Assembly: GCA_964449155.1 (NCBI GenBank)
Contig: CAYVBP010000003.1
Span: 1 to 49,367, forward strand
DNA length: 49,367 nucleotides
Reading direction: 5' to 3'
Source of the DNA: an uncultured Rhodospirillaceae bacterium
GTDB lineage: Bacteria > Pseudomonadota > Alphaproteobacteria > UBA9219
The notes beneath the pieces are model-generated. The model worked only from the letters and a program-made list of their open reading frames with translations. It was not told where the DNA came from and made no database searches. Numbering within the stretch: position 1 is the first letter of the stretch; the number at the start of each line of letters is the position of its first letter. The translations under genes were made by a program, and so were the position numbers. Below, in pieces: positions 19,941 to 45,613 of the stretch.

Positions 19941-21149
19941 ATGACTTTTCGCGTCAGTGCGATGAAAAAAAATTTGCCGGGCATGCTGCTGAGCGTTCTT
20001 GGCGTTTCCTATGCCGTTGTGTTTCTGGCGTCGCTTTATGCCCAGACGCCGATATTTCTTATCAAGTTTTTTTCGTTAGGGTACGACTACCGTGAATTTA
20101 TTTACGCGGCAAAGTCCATTGCGAGAGGCGTCGATCCCTATGTGTCCGAGAGGATCGTTTCTCCGCCGCTTTCGCTTTTCGTTAATTTTCCCTTGGCTTC
20201 TTTTGACGAGACGACAGCCGTAAGGATTTTTTTTGCCGCGAATGCAGCGGCCGTTTTTGGTTCGATCTATGCCGCGTTAAGGGCGACGGGGTTTTCTTGC
20301 TTCGACAGAATTGCGTTTTTGCTCATAACTTTGTTTTGCGCCCCGACTTTGATGCTGCTTGAACGCGGAAATCTGGATGGCATTGTTCTGCTATTGCTGA
20401 CCGTTTTTTTCTTGCAGGGCAAGCGCGAAGGCGTGGCGGGCGTCGCGTTGGGCCTTGCCGCGTCGATTAAGATCTATCCGATCGTTTTATTTGGGCCTCT
20501 TCTTTGGGCCAGAAAATGGCGTACGGCTGCGGCGGCATTTTTTGTCATGGCGGTTCCTCTTGTTGTTCTGTGGGCTGTTTGGCCGGAGGTTTGCTTGTCC
20601 TTTGTCGAAAGGACGTTGGCGCGCGCGAATTTCGTTCGCTTCGACGAAAACCTTTCTGCCGCTAACTTTTTTTTCGAAGCCGGGAAACATCTTCCGGAAC
20701 AAGCGCAGCTTTGGATTGCGCCGATATATAAGGCCGCTTTGGGGGGCTTGGCCGTCGTTGGCGTGTGGGCTGATTTTAAGAGAAATCGAAAGAATCGGCT
20801 GGATGAGTCAACGCAAACCGTTTTAGCTGCCAGTTATCTTGTTTTTGCCGTCAATGCGCCTTTGACCGTATACCTCTATTCGGGCGTTGTCGTTCTTTTG
20901 CTCTTAATTTTGACGCTAAGGGGAAAGGTTCCTACAGGGCCTTTGGCGCTATCGCTGCTTGCCGCTGGAAGCGCGCTTGTTTTTTTCCCGGCCCGCGCGT
21001 TTGATTTGACGCTTCAAAACGTTCCTGTTCTATATAAACTTAACTTTTTTCCTCAGGTTGGCGGCTTGCTTTTGCTGTTGTATTTTGTGGCGCTTCGCGT
21101 TGAAAAACCTGGCGTTGTTAAGCCTTGTGAAGCGAAGGGGGCGCAATAA
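19941..21149 (+). CDS. Polytopic membrane protein, GT-C fold DUF2029/GT87-like glycosyltransferase (paralog 1)
   Basis: About 10 hydrophobic segments. First-loop motif GYDYREFIYAAKSIARGVDPYV, then LERGNLDGIVLLLLT and AASIKIYPIV. The family call is from memory of the DUF2029 pattern. Confidence 0.65.
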   Translation: MTFRVSAMKKNLPGMLLSVLGVSYAVVFLASLYAQTPIFLIKFFSLGYDYREFIYAAKSIARGVDPYVSERIVSPPLSLFVNFPLASFDETTAVRIFFAANAAAVFGSIYAALRATGFSCFDRIAFLLITLFCAPTLMLLERGNLDGIVLLLLTVFFLQGKREGVAGVALGLAASIKIYPIVLFGPLLWARKWRTAAAAFFVMAVPLVVLWAVWPEVCLSFVERTLARANFVRFDENLSAANFFFEAGKHLPEQAQLWIAPIYKAALGGLAVVGVWADFKRNRKNRLDESTQTVLAASYLVFAVNAPLTVYLYSGVVVLLLLILTLRGKVPTGPLALSLLAAGSALVFFPARAFDLTLQNVPVLYKLNFFPQVGGLLLLLYFVALRVEKPGVVKPCEAKGAQ

Positions 21150-21253
21150 GCAAAGGGGACACAATAAAAATACCCAAACTGCGGTTCTCCGTTCCGCACT
21201 GCCTTTTCTTGCATTTTTATTGTGTCCCCCGTGTCCCGGATTCTGGGTATATA
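21148..21253. repeat. MITE-like element, copy 3 (truncated: left outer arm missing, right arm internally deleted)
   Basis: AAGCAAAGGGGACACAATAAAAATACCCAAACTGCGGTTCTCCGTTCCGCACTGCCTTTTCTTGCATTTTTATTGTGTCCCCCGTGTCCC matches the copy 2 core in the same orientation. It begins within the stop codon of the upstream gene. Confidence 0.8.
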
Positions 21254-21273
21254 AGGGGTAATCACGCTTTGGG

Positions 21274-22515
21274 GTGAAAAACTTGGATTGCCGCGTTCGA
21301 TTGCTCAAGAAACAAATTCCGTTCGTTCTGGCGACTGCTCTTGCTGTGTCGTACGGGATTTTGTTTTTGCTCGCTCTTTTTTGGCAGAAGCCTATTGTTT
21401 TGGTCGGGCAGATCGGCCTTGGGTTCGATTACAGCATTTTTCATCGCGCGTCCCGCGTCATGATGTCGGGATACGATCCTTATGTCATCGACGGGCTTTA
21501 TGTTGCGCCTCCGTTGGCGGCTTTTATCAATATGCCTCTGGCGATGCTTTCGCGCGCCGCAGCGACCGGAGTTTTTTTCGTCGTCAATGCCGTTATTGCG
21601 CTTTTTTGCACGTATGCGCTATCGGCTCGGGCGGGGATTTTGGGCGCGCGCAGGCTTGCGATGCTGTTTGTGGCTTTGTTCTGCGCGCCGACCATGATGC
21701 TTGTCGAACGAGGAAATATCGATGGCATTGTCCTGCTTTTTCTGACGCTTTGGTACTTGCTTTGGGATCGTCAAATTCTGTCTGGCATCGCTTTGGGCGT
21801 TGCGGCAGCGGTTAAGGTTTATCCTTTAGTTGTACTTCCGGGATTGTTGGGCGCAAAAAGATTTAGATCTTTTGCCGTGGCCTTAGGCGTCGCGGTTGTT
21901 TCGACAGGCGCGATGTATGTCGTTTGGCCGGAACTTGTGATTTCATTTTTTGAAAGGTCTTCGGATCGGACGGCGTGGACGCGCCTTAACGAGAATATTT
22001 CATCCGCAAACCTTTTTATTCAAGCGATGGATGAACCCTCCGATGGCTTGATCCGTTCGGGATTGGGCGGGATTAGGATTTATATGTATAAGGCCATGAT
22101 TGCGGCGTTCTTGGGACTGGGGGTGTTTTGGGACTTTAAAAAGGCGCGGGCCGGGGAAATCGCGAAAAACCGTGGCAAAGTTCTTGCCGTTAGCTACCTT
22201 GCTTTTGCGGTCAATGTGCCGTCCCTTGTGTTTCTTTATTGCGGGGTCGTCGTTTTGTTGATTCTGCTGTCGGCTTTGGACAGAAAGGCGTCGGTTGGTC
22301 CCGTTTCGTTGTCGCTGCTTATGGCTGCATCATTTCTTATCTTTTTTCCGGCCCGGTCCTTCGAAATTACGCTGAATCATATACCGTTTATTAAGCTCGT
22401 CGATTTTGTGCCTGAAATAGGGGGATTGGTTTTGTTATTATATTTCATGGCGTTGCGGCTTGAGGGGCGGGGGCAGGAGCTGAAAATTAAAAAAGACTCG
22501 CGTTGCTTCGAATAA
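21274..22515 (+). CDS. Polytopic membrane protein, GT-C fold DUF2029/GT87-like glycosyltransferase (paralog 2)
   Basis: GTG start. Collinear with 19941-21149: GFDYSIFHRASRVMMSGYDPYV, VERGNIDGIVLLFLT, AAAVKVYPLV. Confidence 0.65.
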   Translation: MKNLDCRVRLLKKQIPFVLATALAVSYGILFLLALFWQKPIVLVGQIGLGFDYSIFHRASRVMMSGYDPYVIDGLYVAPPLAAFINMPLAMLSRAAATGVFFVVNAVIALFCTYALSARAGILGARRLAMLFVALFCAPTMMLVERGNIDGIVLLFLTLWYLLWDRQILSGIALGVAAAVKVYPLVVLPGLLGAKRFRSFAVALGVAVVSTGAMYVVWPELVISFFERSSDRTAWTRLNENISSANLFIQAMDEPSDGLIRSGLGGIRIYMYKAMIAAFLGLGVFWDFKKARAGEIAKNRGKVLAVSYLAFAVNVPSLVFLYCGVVVLLILLSALDRKASVGPVSLSLLMAASFLIFFPARSFEITLNHIPFIKLVDFVPEIGGLVLLLYFMALRLEGRGQELKIKKDSRCFE

Positions 22516-42804: not shown

Positions 42805-44046
42805 TCAGAGGGATTGGTAAAGGGCTGCGATTTCTTCGGCTAGTCTTAAGGCTGCGGCGCTTTTGCTTGTGGTTTTTGTTTGTTCGGGTGGGGCGTTTGG
42901 TTTGATGAATATAATTTGGTTCTCGGTCTTGTCGTAAGCGGCTTCGTGGCCGACAAGGTTGGCGCAGATTATGTCTGCGCCTTTGGCCGCGAGTTTTCCT
43001 TGCGCATAGGCGACGATTTTCTTTGGGTCTGTTTCGGCGGCGAAGCCGATGACGAGCGCGGGACGTCGTAATGAGCCTTTTCCGATTGTTTCGAGAATAT
43101 CCGGATTTTGGGTCAGTGCGAGCGCGTGCGTTTCGTTTTCTGCAATCCTTAGCTTCTCGGGGCTTGCGCATCCGAAGTCCGCGACTGCCGCAACGCCGAT
43201 AAAAACGTCGGCGGGCAGGGTGTTTTTGCAGGCCGCAAGCATCGATTTGGCCGTCGTTGTTTGTACAATTTCGATGTTTTCTTCCTTTGGCGGAAGAAGC
43301 GCCGATGGACCGGCGATATATGTAACTTTTGCGCCCATCGCGGCAAGGGCGCGCGCGATCTCGCGGCCTTGCAGGCCTGTCGAGAAGTTCGTAATGACGT
43401 CGCCTGATGGTGTAAGCGGTTCCTCGGTCGGGCCGCTTGTGACAACGATTTTTTTGCCCGCTAGTTTATGCGAGGAAGACATTGGCGGTTCGAAGATGGG
43501 GGCGGAAATTTCGGGGCGAAAAACGGGAGGATGCGCGAGGATATCGGCAATCGCGTTTGGCAGCGAGCCGATGGAGAACGTTTTTTGCCGGACGTCATAG
43601 CCCCATGCCGGGATTCCCCAGCTTTTCGCGCGCGCGGCGATATCGATGTTTCCGGTGACCTCCAGCGAGATGGCGCTTCCGGCTGCGGCTTTGATTTTCA
43701 GTTTGTGCGCCGTCCGCGCGGCGGGCCTTATCGAGGCGGGTGAGGCAAAGCATAAGACGACATCGCAGGCGTTCTTATGAATGTGGGCGGCGACGGCATC
43801 CATCAGATCTTGGGCGGAGACAAGGGGGCGTCCGTCTTCAAAGCGGGCGATGGCCGAGATTCCGGAAAAACCGGATGGCGCGAAAACTGTAACCTTAGCG
43901 CCTCTCGCTGCGAGAAGCGCTGCGGCAGCGCAGCCGTCGTTTTCGGGGCGTTTGCGGTTGGCATAGTGGCGGACGCCGTCGATATCTTCGCGCGGATGTC
44001 CGACGGTAAGGACAATGTGCGCGGTTTTCAGATCTTGCGCCGTCAT
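42805..44046 (-). CDS. Tandem CoaB-like protein: degenerate half-CoaB (aa ~8-140) + full phosphopantothenoylcysteine synthetase domain (aa ~196-413)
   Basis: The second domain aligns well to E. coli Dfp CoaB (KKIVVTSGPTEEPL...ITNFSTGLQG, GAKVTYIAGP, GVAAVADF, NPDIL, GFAAET, IICAN). The first domain reads VLTVGHPREDIDGVRHYANRKRPENDG...GAKVTVFAPS...AHKLKIK...GNIDI. Confidence 0.75.
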   Translation of the reverse strand: MTAQDLKTAHIVLTVGHPREDIDGVRHYANRKRPENDGCAAAALLAARGAKVTVFAPSGFSGISAIARFEDGRPLVSAQDLMDAVAAHIHKNACDVVLCFASPASIRPAARTAHKLKIKAAAGSAISLEVTGNIDIAARAKSWGIPAWGYDVRQKTFSIGSLPNAIADILAHPPVFRPEISAPIFEPPMSSSHKLAGKKIVVTSGPTEEPLTPSGDVITNFSTGLQGREIARALAAMGAKVTYIAGPSALLPPKEENIEIVQTTTAKSMLAACKNTLPADVFIGVAAVADFGCASPEKLRIAENETHALALTQNPDILETIGKGSLRRPALVIGFAAETDPKKIVAYAQGKLAAKGADIICANLVGHEAAYDKTENQIIFIKPNAPPEQTKTTSKSAAALRLAEEIAALYQSL

Positions 44047-45104
44047 CGGTCCTTAAGCCGAGCGAGATCGTCAACGGCTTCTATGCCGTCGCGCGTTAGT
44101 TTGTCGGCAATATCGGCGGGAAGGTTTTGCAGACATGCCGTTGTCGTCATGACGGGCGCTTTCGACGCCAGATAGCAACATAGGCTTAGCGTGTCCGCAT
44201 ATCCGCGCAAAAGGGACTGGGCAAAGTCGATGTCGATAAAAGGAAAAAACAAGCACCGCGCTTTTTCGGAAAGCTTGATGTGTTCAAGGCCTTGAAGTCC
44301 GGGCACCTGATAAAAATGCGTAACGATGTCAGCTTTTGACATGTTTGTCAGCGGTTCGGCAAGATTCTTCCAGTCGGGATCGAGAATGTAGGTTGCGGTT
44401 ATTCCTTTTTCTTTCAATTCTTCAGCAAAGCGTTTGACCTCCGGCCACGGAACGCACTTGCCCCCAAGCGCGACGAGAACCCCCGGCGCGTCGCCTTCGG
44501 GAGCGAAGGGAAGAGAGGCTGGCTTTTGCTTGGCTTCTTCAAAGGCAGCCAAGGCTGGATGCGTTTGGCCGTCTATGGCTGCGCGTAGGCCAGACGCCAT
44601 TTCCTTAACGTCGATCATGCGGCCAAAGCCCTTATCGCCGCAAGCCATAGGGCCTTTGGTGGGGCCGAGGAACGTTGCGCCCGTTGCCGCTAACGCTTCG
44701 CAGTTTCTGCGGATTGCAGGGCGTTCCCACATTTTGTAATTCATGGCGGGCGCAAGGAAAAGGCGGCTTCCTTTGCGCGCCGCATCAAGGACGGCATGCG
44801 CCAGATCCGAAGCGTCGAAGGCAAGGCGGCTTATAAACCCGGCGCTTGCGGGGGCGACAAGGATGGCCTTTGCGGCGCAAAGCGCCTTCGTTTTTGATTC
44901 AAGGTCGTCGGCGTCGACGAGGACCGGGTGGCCTGACGCTTGTTCCGCTTGGGCGGGAGAAACCCATTTCCATTGTTCGGGCGCGCGAGTCAGAAGAACT
45001 GAGACGTCAAAGCCTTCTTTGCGCAATGCGTCGATAAGATCAAGTGTTTTGGTGGCGGCGATGCTTCCGGTCACAAGCAACGCGACGTGCGTTTGATCTT
45101 TCAT
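44043..45104 (-). CDS. Tandem flavoprotein: CoaC-like phosphopantothenoylcysteine decarboxylase domain (aa 1-175) + second truncated CoaC-like repeat (aa ~205-353)
   Basis: Domain 1 has ALLVTGSIAATKT, APAMN (aa 118-122) and ACGDKGFGR (aa 154-162). Domain 2 has VLVALGGKCVPWPEVKRFAEELKEKGI and LEHIKLSEKARCLFFPF (His275). ATGA overlap with the downstream gene. It starts 8 nt after the rpiB stop. Confidence 0.75.
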   Translation of the reverse strand: MKDQTHVALLVTGSIAATKTLDLIDALRKEGFDVSVLLTRAPEQWKWVSPAQAEQASGHPVLVDADDLESKTKALCAAKAILVAPASAGFISRLAFDASDLAHAVLDAARKGSRLFLAPAMNYKMWERPAIRRNCEALAATGATFLGPTKGPMACGDKGFGRMIDVKEMASGLRAAIDGQTHPALAAFEEAKQKPASLPFAPEGDAPGVLVALGGKCVPWPEVKRFAEELKEKGITATYILDPDWKNLAEPLTNMSKADIVTHFYQVPGLQGLEHIKLSEKARCLFFPFIDIDFAQSLLRGYADTLSLCCYLASKAPVMTTTACLQNLPADIADKLTRDGIEAVDDLARLKDR

Positions 45105-45111
45105 CGAGGGA

Positions 45112-45561
45112 TTAAAGGCCTCCTAAAGCGGTCAATTTGTCGCAGCGATCTTTGTAGCGACCGCCCAGAAAATCCGTTGACAGAAACGTTTCGACGCAAT
45201 CAAGCGCGATTTCCTGTCCCACGATATGTGCGCCGAGCACGAGGACGTTCGCATCGTTATGTTGGCGGGCGAGGCGAACCATGGTTGAATTCAGGCACAA
45301 GGCCGCGCGAATATGGCTGTATCGGTTCGAGGTCATAGCCATAACCTGTCCCGTCCCGCAAATAAGGATCCCCATATGGGACGGATTTTCTTTAAGGTCG
45401 GCGGCGACTTTTGGGGCGAAATCGCCCGCGTCGCACCGGGTTTCATCGAAAGGGCCATAGTCCACAATGTCGATGCCGCGTTCCTTAAGGGCCGCGGAAA
45501 TCAATGATTTCAATGGGTAGCCGCGATGGTCCGAAGCTATGGCAATTTTTTTCTCAAGCAT
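45112..45561 (-). CDS. rpiB: Ribose-5-phosphate isomerase B
   Basis: KIAIASDHRGYPLK and ILICGTGQVMAMTSNRYSHIRAALC motifs. I prefer the start MLEKKIAI (45561). Confidence 0.85.
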   Translation of the reverse strand: MLEKKIAIASDHRGYPLKSLISAALKERGIDIVDYGPFDETRCDAGDFAPKVAADLKENPSHMGILICGTGQVMAMTSNRYSHIRAALCLNSTMVRLARQHNDANVLVLGAHIVGQEIALDCVETFLSTDFLGGRYKDRCDKLTALGGL

Positions 45562-45613
45562 GACTAACACCGAAAAAAGCAATAATACTGACAATACTCG
45601 ATAATTTTTATCT

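What the first reader, a model, noticed from the sequence alone, without database searches (positions are those of the whole stretch)
42805..45104. CoaBC encoded as two genes, each an internal duplication (CoaC-CoaC' | CoaB'-CoaB), with different catalytic motifs lost in each CoaC repeat
**Arrangement.** Bacterial CoaBC (Dfp) is normally one ~400-aa CoaC-CoaB fusion. Here two ATGA-coupled genes follow rpiB and together encode 766 aa.

**Gene 1, repeat 1.** It aligns along its length to E. coli CoaC. It keeps PAMN (aa 119-122) and the substrate-clamp ACGDKGFGR (aa 154-162). Where E. coli has GHIELGKWADLVILAPAT with the catalytic His, it reads KTKALCAAKAILVAPAS, so the His is absent.

**Gene 1, repeat 2 (aa ~205-353).** It repeats the Rossmann-like start (VLVALGGKCVPWPEVKRFAEELKEKGITATYIL) and keeps the His block (LEHIKLSEKARCLFFPF). 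It has no PAMN (APVMTTTACL instead) and no Cys clamp.

**Gene 2.** It holds a truncated, degenerate CoaB repeat that retains an HKLKIK block, followed by a well-conserved full CoaB.

**Interpretation.** The order C-C'-B'-B looks like one coaBC copy nested at the C/B junction of another, followed by gene fission. CoaC/HFCD active sites are built at protomer interfaces. The complementary losses therefore suggest an obligate pseudo-heteromeric enzyme rather than decay. I do not recognise this architecture as described.
Basis: partly seen in the sequence, partly recalled or inferred. Interest (0 to 1): 0.75.

Follow-up and report, generated by a model that had tools for sequence, protein, structure and literature searches.

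The report
Split, duplicated CoaBC with shared sites
Two adjacent genes encode the coenzyme A enzymes CoaC and CoaB, each as a tandem pair of domains in which one domain keeps the catalytic residues that normally act within a subunit and the other keeps only those that normally reach in from the neighbouring subunit, a rare and apparently undescribed bacterial form of an essential enzyme.

Summary

- **Genes.** Gene 1 (44043-45104, minus strand, 353 aa) is CoaC-CoaC'. Gene 2 (42805-44046, minus strand, 413 aa) is CoaB'-CoaB. They overlap by ATGA and lie downstream of rpiB.
- **Homology of the odd halves.** C' has no Pfam hit. Its family profile matches the CoaC domain of M. smegmatis CoaBC (E 3e-8), and its AlphaFold model matches only HFCD flavoproteins. 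B' matches PF04127 (E 1.7e-13).
- **Complementary motifs.** The pattern holds in about 40 relatives.
  - C keeps the FMN motif, PxMNxxMW and the Cys clamp, but not the His.
  - C' keeps only the His.
  - B keeps the SSG, AAVADF and FAAET nucleotide site, but lost the DPVR arginine and KxKK.
  - B' keeps exactly those two elements, which in solved CoaB dimers act from the opposing protomer.
- **Reading.** Each protein is probably a covalent pseudo-heteromer with composite active sites. The CoaC part parallels yeast Hal3/Cab3. I know of no precedent for the CoaB part.
- **Relatives.** Fused 696-766-aa C-C'-B'-B proteins and a reversed gene order also exist. The family is rare, found only in uncultured Alphaproteobacteria, and I found no description of it.
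- **Untested.** Enzyme activity, oligomer geometry and the absence of a canonical coaBC elsewhere in the genome.

The parts
45112..45561 (-). rpiB (ribose-5-phosphate isomerase B), first gene of the apparent operon. The likely start is the ATG at 45561, not the TTG at 45594.
   Evidence: PF02502 at E 7.6e-45, with the match starting at aa 17 of the TTG ORF. Sequence read. The same rpiB-C-C'-B'-B synteny is seen in L085, L086 and L094.
44043..45104 (-). Gene 1: CoaC-CoaC' tandem HFCD protein, 353 aa.
   Evidence: ORF. 18 full-length homologues at 34-55% identity. Full-length AlphaFold2 model with pLDDT 91 and pTM 0.88.
44550..45104 (-). C domain (aa 1-185). It keeps the FMN-binding VTGSIAA..K motif, PAMN..MW and the ACGD.G.GR clamp, and lacks the catalytic His.
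   Evidence: PF02441 at E 1.5e-15. Canonical CoaC HMM at E 2e-44. Invariant residues listed.
44739..44750 (-). PAMN (aa 119-122) of the PxMNxxMW motif in C.
   Evidence: Translation. Invariant in the family. Kept in all 43 C domains.
44619..44645 (-). Substrate clamp ACGDKGFGR (aa 154-162) with the catalytic Cys155, in C.
   Evidence: Translation. A154, C155, G159, G161 and R162 are invariant. Cys is kept in 42/43 C domains.
44490..44549 (-). C-C' linker (aa 186-205).
   Evidence: Poorly conserved in A1. Lowest pLDDT blocks (71-75) of the full-length model.
44046..44489 (-). C' domain (aa 206-353). HFCD fold that keeps the His motif but lacks the FMN Ser/Lys, PxMN and the Cys clamp.
   Evidence: Profile vs PDB: 6TGV CoaC at E 3e-8. 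Foldseek hits are HFCD only. Motif table.
44271..44291 (-). GLEHIKL motif with the invariant His275 (codon 44280-44282), equivalent to the catalytic His of CoaC/HFCD enzymes.
   Evidence: G272, E274, H275 and I276 are invariant. Aligned to 'QHVRI' of 6TGV. His is present in 42/42 C' domains. Loop pLDDT is 47-68 in isolated C' and 86 in the full chain.
42805..44046 (-). Gene 2: CoaB'-CoaB tandem PPCS protein, 413 aa, start overlapping the gene 1 stop (ATGA).
   Evidence: ORF. Junction. 31 full-length homologues at 38-51% identity.
43621..44037 (-). B' domain (aa 4-142), the first ~130 of 218 canonical CoaB positions. It has no SSG, no AAVADF Asp and no FAAET/K..K/VAN, so its own nucleotide site is predicted dead.
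   Evidence: PF04127 at E 1.7e-13, profile positions 2-128/186. PDB alignments. Motif table.
43957..43980 (-). DGVRHYAN (aa 23-30) in B'. D23, R26 and N30 correspond to D204, R207 and N211 of M. smegmatis CoaB.
   Evidence: Alignment to 6TGV. D23, G24, R26 and N30 are invariant. The paper places R207 and D204 on protomer B, opposite the D281/F282 site (PMC7794376).
43690..43704 (-). KLKIK (aa 115-119) in B', equivalent to the K-X-K-K loop.
   Evidence: K115, K117 and K119 are invariant. Aligned to KIKK of 6TGV and 1U7U. In solved CoaB the loop extends from the opposing protomer onto the CTP triphosphate (PMC7794376).
43468..43620 (-). B'-B connecting segment (aa 143-193), partly conserved (W..P..GY...Q..F).
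   Evidence: Family alignment A4. No canonical HMM coverage.
42814..43467 (-). B domain (aa 194-411). Full-length CoaB with NFSTG (43375-43389), AAVADF (43174-43191), GFAAET (43030-43047) and ICAN (42958-42969). It has TPSGD in place of DPVR and KLRI (43144-43155) in place of KxKK.
   Evidence: PF04127 at E 1.4e-46. 4QJI/6TGV at E 1e-25. Motif table: Arg never present, KxKK loop Lys-poor, cis motifs all present. Coordinates.

Best explanation
The two genes encode the organism's phosphopantothenoylcysteine decarboxylase (gene 1) and phosphopantothenoylcysteine synthetase (gene 2). Each is a covalently linked pseudo-heteromer that arose by duplication of the catalytic domain, followed by complementary loss of active-site elements.

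In canonical enzymes both active sites are built across subunit interfaces. Here the two sides of each interface have been assigned to different domains.

**Gene 1.** Domain C binds FMN and supplies PxMNxxMW (Asn122) and the clamp Cys155. Domain C' supplies only the general-base His275. A C/C' interface therefore forms one complete decarboxylase site, and C/C and C'/C' interfaces are dead.

**Gene 2.** Domain B binds CTP and phosphopantothenate through SSG, AAVADF, FAAET and the C-terminal K..K and VAN motifs. Truncated B' folds against B like the second protomer of a CoaB dimer. It lends the K-x-K-x-K loop that closes over the triphosphate, and Arg26, which is needed for the cysteine-addition half-reaction. 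That gives one active site per chain.

**Shown:** the domain homologies, the motif distribution and its conservation across the family, and a confident fixed C/C' arrangement in the AlphaFold model.

**Inferred:** that the retained residues act in trans as in the canonical enzymes, the oligomeric state, and the enzyme activities.
For: 1. Homology of all four domains.
2. Complementarity is family-wide, not a feature of one sequence. With HMMs built from 144 canonical CoaBC, the table covers 43 C-C' and 40 B'-B proteins, including the fused forms.
   - C: Ser (Thr in 2 of 43), PxMN, Trp and Arg in all, Lys in 41/43, Cys in 42/43; a non-His residue at the His position in 39/43.
   - C': His in 42/42. 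Asn and Cys never present.
   - B': G, E, D and R in all, N in 39 of 40, plus at least two Lys of the KxKK loop wherever that loop is aligned (38 of 40). SSG and the AAVADF Asp are lost.
   - B: N, the second Ser and Gly of SSG (first Ser to Phe in the fused forms), AAVADF, NPD (2 exceptions) and the first Lys and the Asn of K..K/VAN kept (FAAET Glu is Gln, and the second Lys mostly Leu, in the fused forms). Arg is never present. None has more than one Lys in the KxKK loop and 31 of 39 have none.
3. The split matches published structural biology.
   - His and Cys/PxMN are donated by adjacent PPCDC protomers, and yeast uses exactly this split between Hal3/Vhs3 and Cab3 (PMC9604783, PMC4626798).
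   - In M. smegmatis CoaB the KxKK loop 'extends from the opposing protomer'. R207, D204 and I292 are assigned to protomer B, while D281 and F282 belong to protomer A (PMC7794376).
4. Purifying selection: invariant GxEHI and LASK blocks in C', and 12 invariant residues in B', at 34-55% overall identity.
5. The full-length gene 1 model has pTM 0.88. The His loop rises from pLDDT 47-68 in the isolated domain to 86 in the full chain.
6. The two genes are adjacent in most loci where enough flanking DNA is held, in either order, or fused into one ORF. They sit in a housekeeping context after rpiB.
7. No other coaBC-like sequence exists in the 49-kb window.
Against: - No activity, cofactor or oligomer data exist.
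- HFCD enzymes assemble from trimers, and a two-domain chain cannot fill a 3-fold trimer symmetrically. The real quaternary structure, and how many C domains get a His partner, are unknown.
- I could not read inter-residue distances from the models, so His275-to-Asn122/Cys155 proximity is not shown.
- A canonical coaBC elsewhere in the genome could not be excluded. Only 49 kb of the genome was available.
- Both proteins score below the NCBIfam CoaBC equivalog cut-off (119 and 180 bits against 219.7).
- In the split clade a Lys (K71) often occupies the His-equivalent position of C. It is not conserved in the fused clade.
- Two loci (L091, L092) show C-C' with no B'-B in the DNA held.
Confidence: 0.7

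Rival explanations
1. C' and B' are catalytically irrelevant scaffolds or regulatory pseudo-domains. C and B carry out catalysis by themselves, with other residues (for example Lys71 in C) replacing the missing His, Arg and KxKK.
For: A Lys sits at the His-equivalent spacing (13 residues before APAS) in most split-clade C domains. C' and B' evolve faster than C and B: mean column identity is 46% against 63% for C'/C. Pseudoenzyme domains that only stabilise a partner are common (general knowledge).
Against: What C' and B' retain as invariant is not generic fold-stabilising residues. It is precisely the catalytic residues missing from C and B: His in C', and D..R..N plus KxKxK in B'. Lys71 is replaced by R, L, H, N, Q or I in other members, including the fused clade. 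No basic residue replaces R207 or KxKK in B.
Confidence: 0.12
2. The pair is a neofunctionalised paralogue acting on another thiol/carboxylate substrate, as HFCD peptide decarboxylases do, while a canonical coaBC elsewhere in the genome makes CoA.
For: Both proteins fall below the CoaBC, CoaB and CoaC equivalog cut-offs. The rest of the genome was not available. One relative fuses C-C' to an aldolase_II-like plus methyltransferase module. Two loci lack an adjacent B'-B.
Against: Best hits of every domain are CoaBC, not RiPP decarboxylases or UbiX: TIGR00521 is the top NCBIfam model and CypD scores E 0.21. The PPCS-specific and PPCDC-specific motif sets are each complete once the two halves are combined. 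A ligase and a decarboxylase stay linked or fused as in CoaBC. No RiPP or biosynthetic genes lie nearby; the neighbours are rpiB, FliL, ClpB, a LON-N domain protein and a Trx-TPR protein.
Confidence: 0.13
3. The arrangement is an artefact or decay product: a frameshifted or misassembled fused gene, or pseudogenised duplicate domains drifting neutrally.
For: A fused 766-aa homologue has exactly the summed length of the two genes.
Against: The split is found in many independent assemblies, with a clean ATGA overlap here. It also occurs in reversed gene order. The fused form is itself seen on 7 contigs. Invariant motifs are maintained at 34-55% identity. The AlphaFold models are confident.
Confidence: 0.02

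Closest known systems
Canonical bacterial bifunctional CoaBC (Dfp), e.g. E. coli, or M. smegmatis 6TGV
   Same: Same two chemistries and the same two folds (PF02441 HFCD flavoprotein, PF04127 PPCS). All canonical motifs are present somewhere in the pair. The decarboxylase and ligase stay genetically linked.
   Different: The canonical enzyme is one ~400-aa C-B chain forming a homododecamer in which every domain carries a full motif set. Here there are four domains (C-C' and B'-B) on two chains, or one ~700-766-aa chain in relatives. Each motif set is divided between a 'cis' domain and a 'trans-donor' domain. Both proteins score below the TIGR00521 cut-off.
Yeast heterotrimeric PPCDC (Hal3/Vhs3 + Cab3)
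   Same: The division of labour in the HFCD active site is identical. One protomer type gives the Cys and PxMNxxMW (Cab3, like C), and the other gives the His (Hal3/Vhs3, like C') (PMC9604783, PMC4626798).
   Different: In yeast the partners are separate paralogous proteins with long extensions and a moonlighting phosphatase-inhibitor role, and Cab3 keeps a non-functional His. Here the partners are fused in one bacterial chain, C has lost the His, and C' has also lost the FMN-binding residues and the whole clamp segment.
Plasmodium falciparum PPCS1/PPCS2 heteromeric PPCS (PMC12985681)
   Same: A PPCS that works as a heteromer of two diverged paralogous PPCS units.
   Different: In Plasmodium both subunits are predicted to bind CTP, and they are separate eukaryote-type proteins. 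Here one unit (B') is truncated, lacks the nucleotide site, and keeps only the trans-acting Arg and Lys loop.
Monofunctional CoaB and CoaC of streptococci/enterococci (TIGR02114, TIGR02113)
   Same: CoaB and CoaC are encoded by separate genes.
   Different: Those are single-domain, complete enzymes. The window proteins score far below their cut-offs (48.9 against 217.2, and 95.4 against 261.4), and each carries a second, complementary domain.
Herpesvirus monomeric dUTPase (from my own knowledge, not tested here)
   Same: The evolutionary logic is the same. A homo-oligomeric enzyme with interface active sites undergoes tandem duplication, each half loses a complementary set of motifs, and a single composite site remains in one chain.
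   Different: An unrelated fold and reaction. It is cited only as a precedent for the mechanism of evolution.

Membership tests
HFCD / PPCDC flavoprotein (CoaC, PF02441) | Rossmann-like HFCD fold and profile match | tested here: met
   C: PF02441 at E 1.5e-15. C': no Pfam hit, but the family profile hits 6TGV CoaC at E 3e-8 and Foldseek hits are HFCD only.
HFCD / PPCDC flavoprotein (CoaC, PF02441) | Catalytic His (E. coli His75 / AtHAL3a His90 equivalent) | tested here: met
   Met only by C' (His275; 42/42 family C' domains). Not met by C (39/43 lack it).
HFCD / PPCDC flavoprotein (CoaC, PF02441) | PxMNxxMW motif and clamp Cys (ACGxxGxGR) | tested here: met
   Met only by C (PAMN 119-122, Cys155; Asn in 43/43 and Cys in 42/43). 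Absent from every C'.
HFCD / PPCDC flavoprotein (CoaC, PF02441) | N-terminal FMN-binding motif (G-S-I-A-A-x-K) | tested here: met
   C: VTGSIAATK, invariant. C': LGGKCVPWP, with the Ser/Lys positions variable across the family. Actual FMN binding is not testable here.
PPCS (CoaB, PF04127) | DFP profile match | tested here: met
   B: E 1.4e-46, full length. B': E 1.7e-13, profile positions 2-128 of 186 only.
PPCS (CoaB, PF04127) | Nucleotide-site motifs: N-x-S-S-G, AAVADF Asp, GFAAET, C-terminal K..K and VAN | tested here: met
   Essentially all present in B: 39/39 for N, the second Ser and Gly of SSG, and the AAVADF Asp. The first Ser is Phe, the FAAET Glu is Gln and the second Lys is mostly Leu in the fused forms. 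All are absent or changed in B' (SSG to KRP/RPE, Asp to Ser, C-terminal third missing).
PPCS (CoaB, PF04127) | D-P-V-R arginine (R207 in M. smegmatis) and K-X-K-K loop | tested here: met
   Present only in B' (D23, R26, K115/K117/K119; D and R in 40 of 40, the loop Lys in 38 of 40). In B the Arg is never present, and the loop is Lys-poor and not conserved.
Bifunctional CoaBC equivalog (NCBIfam TIGR00521) | Whole-protein score at or above the curated cut-off (219.7 bits) on one C-B polypeptide | tested here: not met
   Gene 1 scores 119.3 bits and gene 2 scores 180.4 bits. Neither carries both activities.
Monofunctional CoaC / CoaB equivalogs (TIGR02113, TIGR02114, NF005231) | Score at or above the curated cut-off | tested here: not met
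   95.4 against 261.4, 48.9 against 217.2, and 61.8 against 265.
Heteromeric PPCDC of the yeast Hal3/Cab3 type | His-donor and Cys/PxMN-donor roles carried by different HFCD units | tested here: met
   The sequence pattern is met.
Heteromeric PPCDC of the yeast Hal3/Cab3 type | Physical hetero-oligomer with a single composite active site, and activity only when both units are present | not testable with these tools
   The only indirect support is the full-chain pTM of 0.88 and the ordering of the His loop.
PPCS/PPCDC enzymes in general | Catalysis of phosphopantothenate + Cys + CTP to PPC, then to 4'-phosphopantetheine | not testable with these tools
See the decisive next steps.

The most novel reading that the evidence does not exclude
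A clade of uncultured Alphaproteobacteria has replaced the universal homo-oligomeric CoaBC with a four-domain enzyme (C-C'-B'-B, either fused or split into two genes). In it both the decarboxylase and the ligase active sites are obligately composite. One domain holds the cofactor or nucleotide pocket, and a stripped-down sister domain exists only to donate the trans-acting residues. That would make it a bacterial, covalently linked counterpart of yeast Hal3/Cab3, and the first example of the same principle in PPCS. It would also be the organism's only route to CoA.
Probability: 0.55. Interest if true: 0.7.

Novelty: new variant of a known kind. Interest (0 to 1): 0.62.

Why it matters
CoaBC is essential, nearly universal in bacteria and a drug target. 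Its textbook form is a homododecamer of identical C-B chains.

This family would show that both of its interface-built active sites can be subfunctionalised into 'pocket' and 'donor' domains after duplication.
- For the decarboxylase this would be independent of, and parallel to, the yeast Hal3/Cab3 case.
- For the synthetase it would be the first such case that I know of.

The family also gives a natural experiment that separates the cis-acting and trans-acting residues of CoaB: Arg207, the KxKK loop and the allosteric-site residues targeted in M. tuberculosis. It provides a clean example of duplication followed by complementary degeneration (constructive neutral evolution) in a core metabolic enzyme.

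There is a practical annotation point as well. These genes are currently labelled 'flavoprotein', 'phosphopantothenoylcysteine decarboxylase' (for the ligase gene) or 'hypothetical protein'. Both window proteins score below the equivalog cut-offs. Pathway reconstructions for these MAGs would therefore probably miss CoA steps 2 and 3.

Tried and rejected
- **hhalign of the C' alignment against the family's own C alignment** gave only a weak partial match (probability 24%, 60 columns). C' is closer to canonical CoaC than to its partner C, so I used PDB and canonical profiles instead.
- **The single genome-contig scan** used N-terminal motifs shared with all CoaBC and was swamped by canonical genes. 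Only L001 was a true family member, so I cannot give a count of species.
- **The metagenome scan** with the C' motif returned only 7 loci.
- **NJ trees of the C and B domains** are too crude to root fused against split forms, or to decide between one origin and several. A divergent subgroup clusters near a few canonical sequences, possibly through long-branch effects.
- **Rfam** found nothing in the window.
- **The promoter/terminator scan** around the operon was at or below shuffle expectation.
- **Long BLAST coverage of gene 2 by some 408-aa proteins** (P0142 and similar) suggested another architecture, but they are ordinary C-B CoaBC. The alignment simply ran on from B into the Rossmann-like C domain.
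- **The 'nested copy' origin.** I found no test that separates it from two independent tandem domain duplications.
- **Whole-genome absence of a canonical coaBC** could not be checked with these tools.


Full report
**1. What is in the sequence**

On the minus strand, three genes run head to tail:
- rpiB (45112-45561/45594),
- a 353-aa ORF (44043-45104),
- a 413-aa ORF (42805-44046).

Gene 1 starts 7 nt after the rpiB stop, behind a GGAGG. Gene 2's ATG overlaps gene 1's TGA as ATGA. There is no other coaBC-like sequence in the 49-kb window (tblastn with six canonical CoaBC).

**2. Are the halves really duplicated domains?**

- Gene 1 aa 6-170 matches PF02441 (E 1.5e-15). Gene 1 aa 195-353 has no Pfam hit.
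- I collected 18 full-length homologues (34-55% identity) and built a profile of the C-terminal half alone. That profile hits the CoaC domain of M. smegmatis CoaBC (6TGV, residues 5-148) over its whole length at E 3e-8. Three other HFCD Cys-decarboxylases follow.
- An AlphaFold2 model of this half (pLDDT 85, pTM 0.82) retrieves only HFCD-fold proteins from the PDB: SpaF, CoaBC, CypD, EpiD, human PPCDC, AtHAL3a and UbiX. The best hit has E 2e-6 and TM 0.70.
- Gene 2 aa 7-140 matches PF04127 positions 2-128 of 186 (E 1.7e-13) and solved CoaB structures (E 2.7e-8). Gene 2 aa 194-411 is a full-length CoaB (E 1e-46 and 1e-25).

The architecture C-C' | B'-B is therefore real.

**3. Which residues does each domain keep?**

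I built HMMs of the canonical CoaC and CoaB domains from 144 ordinary CoaBC proteins. I then read off the residue at each diagnostic position in every family member found: 33 C-C' proteins, 31 B'-B proteins and 10 fused or variant proteins.

| Domain | Keeps | Lacks |
|---|---|---|
| C | FMN Ser (Thr in 2) and Lys (41/43), PxMN, Trp and Arg (43/43), clamp Cys (42/43) | His (non-His residue in 39/43) |
| C' | His (42/42) | Asn, the clamp and the FMN Ser/Lys |
| B' | Gly, Glu, Asp and Arg (40 of 40) and Asn (39 of 40) of GPTxExiDPVRxxxN, plus two or three Lys of the KxKK loop (38 of 40) | SSG, the AAVADF Asp, and the whole C-terminal third (FAAET, K..K, VAN) |
| B | Asn and the second Ser and Gly of SSG (first Ser is Phe in the fused forms), AAVADF, NPD (2 exceptions), FAAE (Q in fused forms), K..K (second Lys mostly Leu in fused forms) and VAN | The DPVR Arg (never present); the KxKK loop is Lys-poor and non-conserved |

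The residues kept by C' and B' are among the few invariant columns of the family alignments:
- G272, E274, H275 and I276;
- D23, G24, R26 and N30;
- K115, K117 and K119.

**4. Why this pattern is meaningful**

Published work shows that both canonical active sites are built across subunit interfaces.

[quoted passage not shown] Yeast uses exactly this split: Cab3 donates the Cys and PxMNxxMW, and Hal3/Vhs3 donates the His (PMC9604783).

*CoaB.* In the M. smegmatis structure (PMC7794376):
- the K-X-K-K loop 'extends from the opposing protomer' onto the CTP triphosphate;
- R207, which is needed for the second half-reaction, together with D204 and I292, belongs to protomer B;
- D281 and F282 belong to protomer A.

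Alignment to 6TGV shows that B' D23, R26 and N30 correspond to D204, R207 and N211, and that KLKIK corresponds to KIKK. B keeps D290/F291 (equivalent to D281/F282) but has Thr and Gly/Asp where D204 and R207 should be.

So C' and B' retain the trans-acting elements, and C and B retain the cis-acting pockets. This is the signature of duplication followed by complementary degeneration, not of decay.

**5. Structural hint**

The full-length gene 1 model is confident (pLDDT 91, pTM 0.88). That implies a defined C/C' arrangement. The loop carrying His275 is disordered in the isolated C' model (blocks 68 and 47) and ordered in the full chain (86 and 86). I could not extract coordinates, so contact between His275 and the C pocket is inferred, not shown.

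**6. Distribution and variants**

- **The family is rare.**
  - It forms about 18 (gene 1) and 31 (gene 2) clusters at 90% identity among 5.8 billion proteins.
  - About 35 clusters at 50% identity have a C' domain in second position among 1.84 billion representatives.
  - The JGI metagenome contigs hold 7 loci.
- **Sources.** All named sources are MAGs labelled Alphaproteobacteria, Pseudomonadota or 'Bdellovibrionales'.
- **Gene order.**
  - C-C' then B'-B in the window, L001, L081 and L085-L090.
  - Reversed in L083 and L084.
  - A single fused ORF in L093.
- **Fused forms.** Eight representative clusters are fused C-C'-B'-B proteins of 696-766 aa with the same complementary motifs. One of them is seen on 7 contigs, including an NCBI MAG where it is annotated 'hypothetical protein'.
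- **A divergent subgroup** (P0018, P0237, P0242, P0243) has a much less degenerate C' (E 1e-24 to 1e-32 against the canonical CoaC HMM). This shows a gradient of divergence.
- **Origin.** Crude NJ trees group the fused forms together but do not resolve the polarity of fusion and fission. Two independent tandem domain duplications would give the same order.

**7. Comparison with what is known**

The chemistry and folds are those of CoaBC. The proteins are not members of the curated CoaBC, CoaB or CoaC equivalogs (all below cut-off).
- The nearest functional analogue for gene 1 is the yeast Hal3/Vhs3/Cab3 PPCDC.
- For gene 2 the only reported heteromeric PPCS I found (P. falciparum, PMC12985681) keeps predicted CTP sites in both subunits. 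A pocket-plus-donor PPCS therefore appears to be new.
- Full-text searches for a description of duplicated or split CoaBC of this kind found nothing.

**8. Open problems**

- HFCD enzymes are built from trimers. A two-domain chain cannot populate a 3-fold trimer symmetrically, so the assembly is unknown. Possibilities include mixed trimers with one site each, as in yeast, or a different oligomer.
- The genome outside the window could not be searched for a canonical coaBC.
- L091 and L092 show C-C' with no B'-B in the DNA held.
- In the split clade a Lys often sits at the His-equivalent position of C. It is not conserved in the fused clade.

**9. Verdict**

This is a real, conserved and apparently undescribed variant of an essential enzyme. 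It is a new variant of a known kind, with interest of about 0.6.

Noticed in passing
L083 4781-7074 (GCA_964517415.1, CAZFCA010000002.1); same in L084: The gene order is reversed in this lineage. The B'-B gene (405 aa) comes first and the C-C' gene (357 aa) second, 2 nt apart.
   Followed up: partly
L093 3293-5437 (FRDC01003430.1); also P0232, P0241, P0246, P0248, P0250, P0252, P0258; L095/L096: All four domains are fused into single C-C'-B'-B polypeptides of 696-766 aa with the same complementary motif pattern. P0232 is exactly 766 aa and is annotated 'hypothetical protein' at NCBI (MBV8060568.1).
   Followed up: yes
L091 2793-3686 (Ga0123353_10000260); L092 30-1241: These C-C' genes have no B'-B gene detectable in the flanking DNA held. 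The L091 protein is only 297 aa: its C domain lacks canonical positions ~46-80 and its C' ends right after YLASK. Whether the ligase gene lies elsewhere is unknown.
   Followed up: partly
P0243 (919 aa, Logan contig); L081 9555-10736: One relative fuses an N-terminal class II aldolase-like segment plus a SAM methyltransferase domain to C-C'. In L081 a separate Aldolase_II gene lies two genes downstream of the pair. A functional link is possible but was not explored.
   Followed up: partly
L001 9527-11074 (P0006); P0236: Some C-C' proteins carry a conserved ~140-150-aa N-terminal extension with no Pfam match.
   Followed up: partly
P0018, P0237, P0242, P0243 (C' domains); P0136-P0138 (B'-B): A divergent subgroup has a C' that is far closer to canonical CoaC: up to 38% identity, APAT-like and P-A-D remnants of the lost motifs, and coverage into the clamp region. 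It may be an early branch or an independent duplication.
   Followed up: partly
P0251, P0013, P0236, P0237 (C domains): There are exceptions to the pattern. Four C domains have a His at or next to the canonical His position, and P0251 has Ser instead of the clamp Cys.
   Followed up: no
window 44892-44894 (Lys71 of gene 1): In the split clade a Lys occupies the position with the exact spacing of the canonical His (13 residues before APAS) in about 14 of 18 sequences. It is not conserved in the fused proteins.
   Followed up: partly
window 19941-22512: Two adjacent paralogous GT87-family glycosyltransferase genes lie in the lowest-GC stretch of the window (GC 0.505, AT skew -0.35 at 20-22 kb).
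   Followed up: partly
window 45562-45594: The mechanical rpiB ORF starts at a TTG, but the Pfam match begins at aa 17 and an ATG at 45561 gives the usual ~149-aa RpiB, as called in the homologous loci.
   Followed up: partly
(source annotations): Public annotations of this family are inconsistent. The ligase gene is often named 'phosphopantothenoylcysteine decarboxylase', the decarboxylase gene 'flavoprotein' or '3-polyprenyl-4-hydroxybenzoate decarboxylase', and the fused form 'hypothetical protein'.
   Followed up: no
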